IMG/VR virus record: IMGVR_UViG_3300014535_000098
Source of the DNA: a virus
Taxonomy: Duplodnaviria; Heunggongvirae; Uroviricota; Caudoviricetes
DNA length: 8,937 nucleotides
Direction: 5' to 3' (one strand)
Numbering within the stretch: the stretch's first letter is position 1; every line of letters starts with the position of its first letter. Under the pieces are notes generated by a model. That model was given only the letters and a program-made list of their open reading frames with translations, ran no database searches and was not told the DNA's origin. Shown here piece after piece: positions 7,766 through 8,583 of this stretch. The translations under genes and the position numbers were made by a program.

Positions 7766-8512
7766 TCAGATCCCATCACCATACTCAAACGTATGGTTAA
7801 TGCCGTTGAAATGCTGATCCATATCCATTGACGGTTTATCGCTATCCGGCTTGCCGACAATGCGTGCCGGAACGCCAGCGGCAGTGGTGTGCGGCGGCAC
7901 CGGTTGCAGCACCACGGAACCTGCGCCAATCTTCGCGCCGCGCCCAACTTCAATATTGCCGAGAATTTTCGCGCCCGCGCCAATCATCACGCCTTCACGA
8001 ATTTTCGGGTGACGGTCACCACCAGATTTACCCGTACCGCCAAGCGTCACAGATTGCAGAATCGATACGTCGTTTTCAATCACCGCCGTTTCACCAACGA
8101 CGATGCCTGTCGCGTGGTCGAGCATGATACCGCGACCAATTTTTGCTGCCGGGTGTATATCAACCTGGAACGTTACAGAGACCTGGTTTTGTAGAAAAAT
8201 AGCCAGCGCGCGACGGCCCTGATTCCACAACCAGTGACCGATGCGATACGCCTGCAAAGCATGAAAACCTTTCAGATATAACAATGGGGTTGAGTATTTA
8301 TCGACTGCCGGGTCGCGGGTACGCACTGCCTGAATATCACAGGCCGCAGAAGCAATCATTTCCGGGTCGGCGGCGTAGGCTTCTTCCACCACTTCACGGA
8401 TAGCAATAGCAGGCATAATTGGCGATGACAGCTTGTTCGCCAGCATGTAGCTCAATGCACTGCCAAGGTTTTCATGCTTGAGTAGCGTTGCGTGGTAAAA
8501 ACTGGCCAGCAT
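7766..8512 (-). CDS. cysE: Serine O-acetyltransferase CysE, main body (residues 26-273 of the canonical 273-aa protein); disconnected from its native start by a frameshift
   Basis: The 248-aa ORF MLASFYHATLLKHENLGSALSYMLANKLSSPIMPAIAIREVVEE...NGINHTFEYGDGI is recognised as CysE lacking its first 25 residues, with left-handed beta-helix hexapeptide repeats (GIVVGETAVIENDVSI, GVMIGAGAKILGNIEVGRGAKIGAGSVV). Stop TGA at 7768-7766. The native start is out of frame; see the next feature and finding. Confidence 0.85.
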   Translation of the reverse strand: MLASFYHATLLKHENLGSALSYMLANKLSSPIMPAIAIREVVEEAYAADPEMIASAACDIQAVRTRDPAVDKYSTPLLYLKGFHALQAYRIGHWLWNQGRRALAIFLQNQVSVTFQVDIHPAAKIGRGIMLDHATGIVVGETAVIENDVSILQSVTLGGTGKSGGDRHPKIREGVMIGAGAKILGNIEVGRGAKIGAGSVVLQPVPPHTTAAGVPARIVGKPDSDKPSMDMDQHFNGINHTFEYGDGI

Positions 8513-8583
8513 TGGCTCACAGTCCGCCAGCGTTCTTCCGCTTTAATATTGTTCCAGACAATTTCCAGTTCTTCACACGACAT
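8513..8583 (-). other. cysE: Orphaned cysE 5' end: native ribosome-binding site, ATG and first 16 codons, out of frame with the gene body
   Basis: Minus-strand ATG at 8583-8581 preceded by GGAGT encodes MSCEELEIVWNNIKAE, matching the CysE N-terminus as I recall it, then continues ERWRTVSQCWPVFTTQRYSSMKTLAVH and stops. The two ATGs (8583 and 8512) are 71 nt apart, where 75 nt (25 codons) is needed to stay in frame. Confidence 0.7.

What the first reader, a model, noticed from the sequence alone, without database searches (positions are those of the whole stretch)
7766..8583. cysE appears frameshifted by a 4-bp deletion between codons 16 and 18
The native cysE ribosome-binding site and ATG (minus strand, 8583) encode MSCEELEIVWNNIKAE and then run out of frame into a stop, giving a 43-aa peptide. 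The gene body (7766-8512) is intact but in a different frame; reading upstream from its first Met gives ...RTLADCEP, matching residues 18-25 of CysE, before an in-frame stop at 8545-8543. The two ATGs are 71 nt apart instead of 75. The minus-strand sequence gcggaag|aacgctg is what remains if CCAG (or GCCA) is removed from the GCG GAA GCC AGA ACG that encodes A-E-A-R-T. Every other gene in the window looks intact, so this is specific. It could mean cysteine auxotrophy, a truncated enzyme from reinitiation at Met26, or a sequence or assembly error; a 4-bp loss is not a typical homopolymer error.
Basis: partly seen in the sequence, partly recalled or inferred. Interest (0 to 1): 0.7.

Follow-up and report, generated by a model that had tools for sequence, protein, structure and literature searches.

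The report
Frameshift-inactivated cysE in gut E. coli
A gut E. coli strain has lost four bases near the start of cysE, the gene for the first step of cysteine synthesis, so it probably cannot make its own cysteine; this is a real but ordinary gene-killing mutation of a kind already known in natural E. coli.

Summary
Against its closest relatives (ST73-type E. coli: strain 9, NE88, Nissle 1917, CFT073) the window lacks exactly 4 bases in cysE codons 16-18 (GCG GAA GCC AGA ACG becomes GCG GAA GAA CG). The native start now gives a 43-aa peptide. The rest of the gene (248 codons, identical to E. coli CysE residues 26-273) lies in another frame, behind a TAA.

All 4,849 of 5,426 complete E. coli genomes that could be compared have the four bases. 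An independent metagenome contig (ENA ERZ1742085) has the identical deletion. A third contig of the same strain (labelled BAEC15-1_SAMEA2580285) has a 7-bp deletion at the same spot. In both, 16-20 kb of neighbouring genes are intact. A sequencing artefact is therefore unlikely, although the window itself is a low-coverage contig with substitution errors elsewhere.

Best reading: a genuine null or near-null cysE allele, predicting cysteine auxotrophy and the known cysE-null phenotypes such as mecillinam resistance. Met26 has no usable ribosome-binding site and lies 58 nt upstream of the short ORF's stop. Any restart product would lack helix α1 (residues 9-17) of the trimer-trimer interface. 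This is a known kind of event and of low-to-moderate interest.

The parts
8534..8537 (-). Junction of the 4-bp deletion. Reference GAAGCCAGAACG becomes GAAGAACG; placement is ambiguous over AGCC, GCCA or CCAG because of a 2-nt AG repeat.
   Evidence: Alignment A1 with strain 9, NE88, Nissle 1917 and CFT073. It is the only indel against strain 9 over 8.9 kb. It is absent from all 4,849 complete E. coli genomes that match the 60-nt junction query.
8452..8583 (-). Frameshift product: the native cysE start codon, 16 native codons, then 27 out-of-frame codons and TGA (43 aa).
   Evidence: Translation. The same 43-aa peptide is encoded on ENA ERZ1742085 NODE_1148.
8590..8593 (-). Native Shine-Dalgarno GGAG, 6 nt upstream of the cysE ATG. 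It is intact, so ribosomes still load here.
   Evidence: Sequence. Anti-SD duplex of -5.9 kcal/mol with good spacing.
8543..8545 (-). TAA in the frame of the gene body. It closes that frame upstream, so the body cannot be reached from the native start.
   Evidence: Translation of 7766-8548.
7766..8512 (-). Stranded cysE body: codons 26-273 plus stop. It holds the SATase_N and hexapeptide domains, residues D92, D143, D157, H158, R192 and H193, and the C-terminal GDGI.
   Evidence: 100% identical to PDB 1T3D residues 26-273. Residue check. Pfam marks on the identical gene call.
8444..8455 (-). Candidate restart codons beside the short ORF's stop. TTG (Leu45, 8455-8453) overlaps TGA (8454-8452) as ATTGA; ATG (Met48) is at 8446-8444.
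   Evidence: Start-codon scan of the body frame with anti-SD energies of -2.1 kcal/mol each. Whether either codon is used is inference only.
8497..8501 (-). T5 run, the only plausible site where a rare -1 ribosomal slip could rejoin the CysE frame. There is no X XXY YYZ heptamer.
   Evidence: Motif scan.

Best explanation
This is a genuine spontaneous 4-bp deletion in cysE of an ST73-related (phylogroup B2) E. coli sampled by shotgun metagenomics.

How it acts (inferred from the sequence): ribosomes start at the intact native site, read 16 correct codons, shift frame and stop after 43 codons. The remaining 248 codons are not translated from that start. With no serine O-acetyltransferase there is no O-acetylserine. 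Without it there is neither cysteine synthesis from sulfate, sulfide or thiosulfate nor the N-acetylserine inducer of the cys regulon. The strain should therefore be a cysteine auxotroph living on cysteine or other thiols from the gut. It should also show the known cysE-null phenotypes, such as mecillinam resistance and altered biofilm formation.

How it arose (inferred): slipped mispairing between 2-3-nt direct repeats (AG..AG, GAA..GAA) that flank a small hairpin, GCCAG-AACG-CTGGC.

Shown versus inferred: the deletion, its reading-frame consequences, its recurrence in independent contigs and its absence from complete genomes are shown. The auxotrophy, the other phenotypes and the mutational mechanism are inferred.
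For: - The 4-nt gap is the only indel against the nearest genomes.
- The identical deletion is in contig L015 (ENA ERZ1742085, 16.7 kb). L015 lacks the window's private substitutions, so it is a separate consensus.
- Contig L009 is 99.95% identical to L015 over 16.7 kb and has a 7-bp deletion at the same site. That deletion leaves the same wrong frame.
- All neighbouring genes in L009 and L015 are full length (kbl, tdh, envC, gpmM, grxC, secB, gpsA, trmL, lldDRP), so the assemblies are not generally indel-ridden.
- None of 4,849 comparable complete E. coli genomes has the deletion.
- The body ORF is identical to functional E. coli CysE, so the inactivation is recent.
- Met26 has only a badly spaced SD-like match 11-16 nt upstream. 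The short ORF runs 58 nt past it.
- CysE residues 9-17 lie at the trimer-trimer interface of the hexamer (PMC8253905).
- A K-12 cysE deletion strain cannot make cysteine (PMC13103366).
- cysE insertions were enriched 141-fold on mecillinam (PMC5549755).
- Cysteine-requiring urinary E. coli isolates are on record (McIver & Tapsall 1995, from the reference list seen).
Against: - The window is a low-coverage short-read contig with clear errors: GGT->GGG changes at 4932, 8916 and 8929, and three non-synonymous changes in its last 22 nt. L015 has only 3.8x coverage.
- I could not see reads, and I cannot exclude that the window and L015 were assembled from the same read set.
- Catalytic residues are all in the stranded body. 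Natural short CysE isoforms lacking about 75 N-terminal residues are active (PMC13040420). A restart product might therefore retain some activity.
- No phenotype was tested.
Confidence: 0.75

Rival explanations
1. The deletion is real, but the gene is leaky. After the 43-codon ORF terminates, ribosomes restart at TTG45 (which overlaps the stop as ATTGA) or at ATG48. Alternatively they initiate at ATG26, or slip -1 on the T5 run. The result would be a small amount of N-terminally truncated or locally scrambled SAT that keeps the strain a slow-growing prototroph.
For: - TTG45 overlaps the stop and ATG48 lies 9 nt downstream.
- A T5 run sits where a -1 slip would restore the frame.
- All catalytic residues and the CysK-binding C-terminus are in the body ORF.
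- Natural CysE isoforms without helices α1-α4 are active enzymes (PMC13040420; PMC13256707).
Against: - None of the candidate starts has a usable Shine-Dalgarno sequence: -2.1 kcal/mol for TTG45 and ATG48, and a mis-spaced match for ATG26.
- There is no canonical slippery heptamer.
- Cutting 25-47 residues removes α1 (and, for the longer cuts, more of the helical N-terminal domain), leaving a partial helical bundle rather than the clean four-helix loss seen in natural short isoforms. Residues 9-17 form the hexamer interface.
- The same strain also carries a -7 allele in the same wrong frame, which does not look like selection to keep the product.
Confidence: 0.13
2. The deletion is a sequencing or assembly artefact of low-coverage metagenome data, and the real strain has intact cysE.
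For: - The window shows error-type substitutions, and its ends fall at assembly breaks.
- L015 has 3.8x coverage.
- Most public 248-aa 'Met26' cysE gene calls turned out to be artefacts of N-gaps or noisy assemblies.
- No hit to the junction in JGI metagenomes or in the species-representative genomes.
Against: - A clean 4-nt loss outside any homopolymer is not a usual short-read error (general knowledge).
- It recurs in a second contig with different private errors.
- A third contig under a different assembly accession and sample label has a different deletion at the same place.
- No other indel occurs in 8.9-20 kb of these contigs.
Confidence: 0.08
3. The frameshift is a programmed recoding site: cysE is normally expressed through ribosomal frameshifting in this lineage.
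For: None beyond the presence of a frameshift with an intact downstream ORF.
Against: - The closest relatives and 4,849 complete genomes have an uninterrupted cysE.
- There is no slippery heptamer.
- There is no Rfam match.
- The two alleles, -4 and -7, differ in sequence at the site.
Confidence: 0.01

Closest known systems
E. coli serine O-acetyltransferase CysE (PDB 1T3D; WP_001277561.1 in ST73 strains)
   Same: The locus (gpsA-cysE, convergent with trmL), the promoter-proximal sequence, the start codon and SD are the same. Residues 1-16 and 26-273 are identical.
   Different: The reading frame is broken after codon 16, so the 273-aa protein cannot be made from the native start.
Engineered and selected cysE null mutants (Keio ΔcysE; transposon insertions selected on mecillinam; Salmonella cysE mutants)
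   Same: The predicted outcome is the same: no O-acetylserine, cysteine auxotrophy and mecillinam resistance (PMC13103366; PMC5549755; Oppezzo & Anton 1995, cited).
   Different: This is a spontaneous 4-bp frameshift in an uncultured gut strain, and its phenotype is untested. The coding body remains intact, so reversion by a nearby +1 or -2 change is possible, unlike a deletion mutant.
Naturally occurring cysteine-requiring E. coli from urine (McIver & Tapsall 1995; Borderon & Horodniceanu 1978), and clinical cysB mutants resistant to mecillinam
   Same: These are natural E. coli, often of extraintestinal-pathogen lineages, that have lost cysteine biosynthesis (reference list; PMC6761508).
   Different: Those isolates were defined by phenotype. 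In clinical mecillinam-resistant isolates the usual lesion is in cysB, not cysE. Here the genotype is known and the phenotype is not.
Natural short-isoform CysE (S. aureus, M. tuberculosis, P. aeruginosa)
   Same: They are SATs that work without the first N-terminal helices (PMC13040420; PMC13256707).
   Different: Those isoforms lack a discrete block of about 75 residues (α1-α4) and have an extended C-terminal helix. A restart product here would lack 25-47 residues of a protein evolved as a hexamer, and there is no evidence that it is made.

Membership tests
Functional full-length CysE (serine O-acetyltransferase, hexameric isoform) | Sequence homology to CysE, with SATase_N and hexapeptide-repeat domains | tested here: met
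   The body ORF matches 1T3D at 248/248 residues, E = 2.4e-165. PF06426 and PF00132 are marked on the identical gene call.
Functional full-length CysE (serine O-acetyltransferase, hexameric isoform) | One uninterrupted ORF of about 273 codons from the native start | tested here: not met
   The native start gives 43 codons. The body is in another frame behind a TAA.
Functional full-length CysE (serine O-acetyltransferase, hexameric isoform) | N-terminal helix α1 (residues 9-17) at the trimer-trimer interface, joined to the catalytic body | tested here: not met
   Residues 1-16 are encoded only on the 43-aa peptide, and residues 17-25 are not encoded in a translatable frame. The interface role comes from PMC8253905.
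Functional full-length CysE (serine O-acetyltransferase, hexameric isoform) | Catalytic Asp92 and His158, and the C-terminal Ile that binds CysK | tested here: met
   D92, D143, D157, H158, R192, H193 and the C-terminal GDGI are present in the body ORF.
Frameshift null allele (recent pseudogene) | An indel not divisible by 3, relative to close relatives that have an intact gene | tested here: met
   A 4-nt gap against four ST73-type genomes. All 4,849 matching complete genomes carry the four bases.
Frameshift null allele (recent pseudogene) | The lesion is real rather than an artefact, i.e. seen independently | tested here: met
   The same deletion is in L015, and a 7-bp deletion is at the same site in L009. 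Flanking genes are intact in both. Reads were not available, so this is met at the level of assemblies only.
Frameshift null allele (recent pseudogene) | No alternative route to a functional product | tested here: inconclusive
   No good SD at ATG26, TTG45 or ATG48, and no slippery heptamer. Termination-reinitiation at the ATTGA overlap cannot be excluded by sequence alone.
Frameshift null allele (recent pseudogene) | Loss of the phenotype (cysteine auxotrophy) | not testable with these tools
   This needs a cultured isolate and growth on minimal medium with sulfate, with and without cysteine.
Programmed ribosomal frameshift gene | The frameshift is conserved in relatives, with a slippery site and a stimulator | tested here: not met
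   Relatives are unshifted. No X XXY YYZ heptamer. No Rfam family.
Natural short-isoform CysE | N-terminus begins after α4 (about residue 76), with an elongated C-terminal helix | tested here: not met
   Candidate starts are at residues 26, 45 and 48. ATG77 has no usable SD. The C-terminus is the standard E. coli one. The definition comes from PMC13040420.

The most novel reading that the evidence does not exclude
Loss of CysE is being selected in this gut lineage rather than merely tolerated. On this reading, one small hairpin-plus-direct-repeat site in cysE was hit twice (-4 and -7) in a single strain circulating in what appears to be a Swedish mother-infant cohort. The selective pressure could be exposure to pivmecillinam, since cysE loss gives mecillinam resistance, or the saving from living on community-supplied cysteine. 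That would make cysE a natural contingency target alongside cysB.
Probability: 0.12. Interest if true: 0.5.

Novelty: new member of a known kind. Interest (0 to 1): 0.27.

Why it matters
If the allele is real, as the evidence indicates, it shows a member of a major extraintestinal-pathogen lineage (ST73-type B2) living in a human gut as a probable cysteine auxotroph. It would depend on host or community thiols, and it may be pre-adapted to mecillinam.

It also matters for annotation. Automated gene callers report the stranded body as a 248-aa 'serine acetyltransferase', which hides the defect, and metabolic reconstructions from such metagenome bins would wrongly score cysteine prototrophy.

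Beyond that it is an ordinary loss-of-function mutation. It does not reveal a new mechanism.

Tried and rejected
1. **Census through the 248-aa Met26 gene call.** It is listed in 263 blocks and on 132 contigs. Nine of the ten loci inspected were artefacts: N-run scaffold gaps inside cysE, or gpsA read-through in noisy assemblies, all with a wild-type 5' end. This count is therefore not a measure of how often cysE is frameshifted.
2. **Census through the 43-aa peptide.** A handful of other 5' frameshift peptides turned up. The two from megabase NCBI contigs (P0005, P0007) sit beside broken gpsA and secB, so they come from indel-ridden assemblies.
3. **Exact junction pattern allowing -4 to -7 alleles.** No hits in JGI metagenome contigs or in the one-genome-per-species set.
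4. **mutT-mutator idea.** All six substitutions against strain 9 are A:T->C:G. I rejected the idea because three are GGT->GGG in error-prone context and three sit in the last 22 nt of the contig. In addition, 5595C is a common polymorphism, matched exactly in 752 complete genomes.
5. **Programmed frameshifting.** No heptamer and no conservation.
6. **Rfam and promoter/terminator scans of the region.** Nothing relevant.
7. **Hairpin as a deletion hotspot.** The stem GCCAG/CTGGC exists (-5.2 kcal/mol as DNA) but is not significantly better than shuffles (z = -1.7). I keep it only as a plausible contributor.
8. **Hufnagel et al. 2018 (PMC5717159).** The paper could not be read. It is cited only through other papers' reference lists.
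9. **Structure prediction of the truncated protein.** Not run, because a confident model would not tell whether the protein is made or stable.

Full report
**What the window is.** The 8,937-base window is E. coli chromosome. It holds the 3' part of upaG (1-3160, +), lldP (3572-5227), lldR (5227-6003), lldD (6000-7190), trmL (7238-7711), cysE on the minus strand (7766-8583) and the 3' end of gpsA (from 8663, minus strand). This comes from the annotation of near-identical complete genomes. The closest genomes are ST73-type phylogroup B2 strains. Strain 9 (NZ_CP048304.1) and NE88 differ by 6-7 substitutions and one 4-nt gap. Nissle 1917, CFT073, ABU 83972 and ATCC 25922 differ further by a 21-bp repeat unit in upaG.

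**Checking the observation.** Every coordinate in the finding holds.
- The ATG at 8583 (minus strand), preceded by GGAG at a 6-nt spacing, opens a 43-codon ORF: MSCEELEIVWNNIKAE followed by ERWRTVSQCWPVFTTQRYSSMKTLAVH and TGA at 8454-8452.
- The 248-codon ORF 8512->7766 reads upstream as ...SGRTLADCEPM, behind a TAA at 8545-8543.
- The two ATGs are 71 nt apart. In the relatives the distance is 75 nt and cysE is 822 nt.
- The five-way alignment shows one gap: reference GCGGAAGCCAGAACG, window GCGGAAGAACG, with every other base of the 200-nt stretch identical.
- Because AG is repeated, the loss can be written AGCC, GCCA or CCAG.
- It is the only indel between the window and strain 9.

**Is it real?** Four lines of evidence bear on this.
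- *Complete genomes.* A 60-nt query across the junction matched 4,849 of 5,426 complete E. coli genomes. Every match fell in the 90-95% identity band, meaning all carry the four extra bases. The 1-kb query likewise found nothing better than 99.6% (1,001 against 1,005 nt).
- *An independent contig with the same allele.* An exact-protein look-up with the 43-aa frameshift peptide found ENA ERZ1742085 NODE_1148 (L015; 16.7 kb, 3.8x coverage). It also carries a 'gem' source tag. L015 aligns to window 1031-8937 without any gap, so it has the same deletion. It lacks the window's private substitutions and has two of its own at its contig end.
- *A third contig with a different allele.* The look-up with the 248-aa body found mostly artefacts (see below), plus one relevant contig: L009 (ENA ERZ28567674, BAEC15-1_SAMEA2580285 scaffold_420; 48.7 kb). 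L009 has the same background and reads AAAGCGGAACGCTGG, a 7-bp deletion at the same site. L009 and L015 are 99.95% identical over 16.7 kb.
- *Clean neighbourhoods.* In both contigs every neighbouring gene is full length.

A clean 4-nt loss outside a homopolymer, repeated in a separate consensus and accompanied by a second lesion at the same site, is not what short-read error looks like. I put the artefact explanation at about 8%.

**Caveats on data quality.** The window is evidently a low-coverage short-read contig.
- Its private substitutions at 4932 (lldP V454G), 8916 and 8929 are GGT->GGG. Together with 8926 they put three non-synonymous changes into the last 22 nt of gpsA. I read these as consensus errors.
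- Its left end lies 34 nt from an N-gap in L009, inside the upaG repeats.
- I could not establish whether the window, L015 and L009 come from different read sets.
- The label BAEC15 looks like a first-author-and-year study code for the Bäckhed 2015 infant-gut cohort. That is my inference from the name only.

**What the lesion does.** Translation from the native start ends after 43 codons. The body is 100% identical to residues 26-273 of E. coli CysE (PDB 1T3D). It keeps D92, D143, D157, H158, R192, H193 and the C-terminal GDGI. The inactivation is therefore recent. I considered four routes by which the body might still be expressed.
- *Initiation at ATG26.* The only anti-SD match is 11-16 nt upstream, which is too far. 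Ribosomes translating the short ORF run straight across this codon and stop 58 nt further on.
- *Termination-reinitiation.* TTG45 overlaps the stop as ATTGA, and ATG48 is 9 nt downstream. Both have negligible SD complementarity of -2.1 kcal/mol.
- *A -1 slip.* There is no X XXY YYZ heptamer. A T5 run (8501-8497) is the only place where a P-site slip would rejoin the frame.
- *Programmed recoding.* This is excluded by the unshifted relatives.

Any restart product would lack helix α1. [quoted passage not shown] Against a firm 'dead' verdict, natural short CysE isoforms that lack about 75 residues (α1-α4) are active enzymes (PMC13040420; PMC13256707). I therefore give a leaky, truncated enzyme about 13%.

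**Expected biology (inferred, not tested).** CysE makes O-acetylserine, and a K-12 ΔcysE strain cannot make cysteine (PMC13103366). From established knowledge of the pathway, loss of O-acetylserine also removes N-acetylserine, the inducer of CysB. cysE mutants are linked to mecillinam resistance by three sources:
- cysE transposon insertions were enriched 141-fold on mecillinam, in a RelA-dependent manner (PMC5549755);
- cysE mutants were discussed as mecillinam-resistant through hyperoxidation of the cell (PMC6761508);
- Salmonella cysE mutants are mecillinam-resistant (Oppezzo & Anton 1995, from the reference list).

Cysteine-requiring E. coli have long been isolated from urine (McIver & Tapsall 1995; Borderon & Horodniceanu 1978; reference list). 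Natural non-Shigella E. coli are otherwise generally prototrophic (PMC13540730). cysE is convergent with trmL, so no polar effect on another gene is expected.

**How it arose (inferred).** In the wild type, the lost bases form the 5' arm of a small hairpin, GCCAG-AACG-CTGGC. Folded as DNA it has -5.2 kcal/mol, with z = -1.7 against shuffles, which is not significant. Short direct repeats flank it. AG..AG gives the -4 allele and GAA..GAA gives the -7 allele. The -7 allele is also exactly the -4 allele minus one GAA of the new GAAGAA tandem. The two may therefore be successive steps or independent events, and both leave the same wrong frame. This is the classical setting for slipped-mispairing deletions. 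I cannot tell which history is right.

**Comparison with what is known.** This is E. coli cysE carrying a spontaneous frameshift, a new allele of a known kind (natural or selected cysE and cys-regulon loss). It is neither a functional full-length CysE, nor a natural short isoform, nor a recoding site; the membership table gives the tests. Gene callers report the stranded body as a 248-aa 'serine acetyltransferase', and the same 248-aa sequence carries that name in NCBI records. Automated metabolic reconstruction would therefore miss the defect.

**Verdict.** The most likely reading (about 0.75) is a real, recent null allele of cysE in a gut ST73-type E. coli, predicting cysteine auxotrophy. 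Interest is low to moderate. The one feature worth following up is the pair of different out-of-frame alleles at one site in one strain, together with the possible link to mecillinam selection.

Noticed in passing
L009:9950-9975 (ENA ERZ28567674, BAEC15-1_SAMEA2580285 scaffold_420), equivalent to window 8530-8540: The same strain background (99.95% identical to L015 over 16.7 kb) carries a 7-bp deletion at the same cysE site (AAAGCGGAACGCTGG), giving a 42-aa peptide. It equals the window's allele minus one more GAA and stays in the same wrong frame.
   Followed up: partly
window 4932, 8916, 8926, 8929: Substitutions private to the window: T->G after GG at 4932, 8916 and 8929, and A->C at 8926. 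They would give lldP V454G and three amino-acid changes in the last 22 nt of gpsA. They look like low-coverage short-read consensus errors at a contig end, not biology.
   Followed up: yes
window 1-40, and L009:18546-18645: The window's left end lies 34 nt from a 100-N scaffold gap in L009, inside the repetitive stalk region of upaG. The window is probably a whole short contig broken at the upaG repeats.
   Followed up: partly
window 176-196: A 21-bp unit (ATCGCCACTAACACCACCAAT) of the upaG stalk repeats is present in the window, strain 9, NE88 and L009, but absent from Nissle 1917 and the other ST73 genomes at 99.5% identity. This is a repeat-number polymorphism in the trimeric autotransporter adhesin.
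   Followed up: no
window 5595 (lldR codon 123, synonymous GGA->GGC) and 280 (upaG, synonymous): 5595C is shared by the window, L009 and L015 but not by the nearest ST73 complete genomes. It is nevertheless common in E. coli, with an exact 61-mer match in 752 complete genomes. 280G is shared by the window and L009. Both are lineage markers, not errors.
   Followed up: yes
window about 7715-7750 (between cysE and trmL): A REP-type palindromic element (gccggatgcggcgtgaacgccttatccggcctac on the minus strand) lies in the convergent cysE-trmL gap. It probably explains why the 1-kb BLAST query found a median of 33 places per genome.
   Followed up: no
L006, L007, L012-L014 (positions about 9895-9995) and L005, L008, L010, L011: Public assemblies in which cysE is called as the same 248-aa Met26 protein although the 5' end is wild type. 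In the first group, runs of N sit inside cysE. In the second, gpsA is called as reading on into the cysE 5' region (a fused or over-long call ending at 10061); short N runs or extra bases lie near the end of gpsA. The 248-aa 'serine acetyltransferase' entries in databases are therefore mostly gene-calling artefacts.
   Followed up: yes
L016, L017 (GCA_949813105.1, GCA_949813145.1) and L018 (GCA_046507455.1): Other cysE 5' frameshift peptides come from chromosome-sized NCBI contigs in which gpsA (and, in L018, also secB) is split as well. This points to indel-rich assemblies rather than real cysE mutants.
   Followed up: partly
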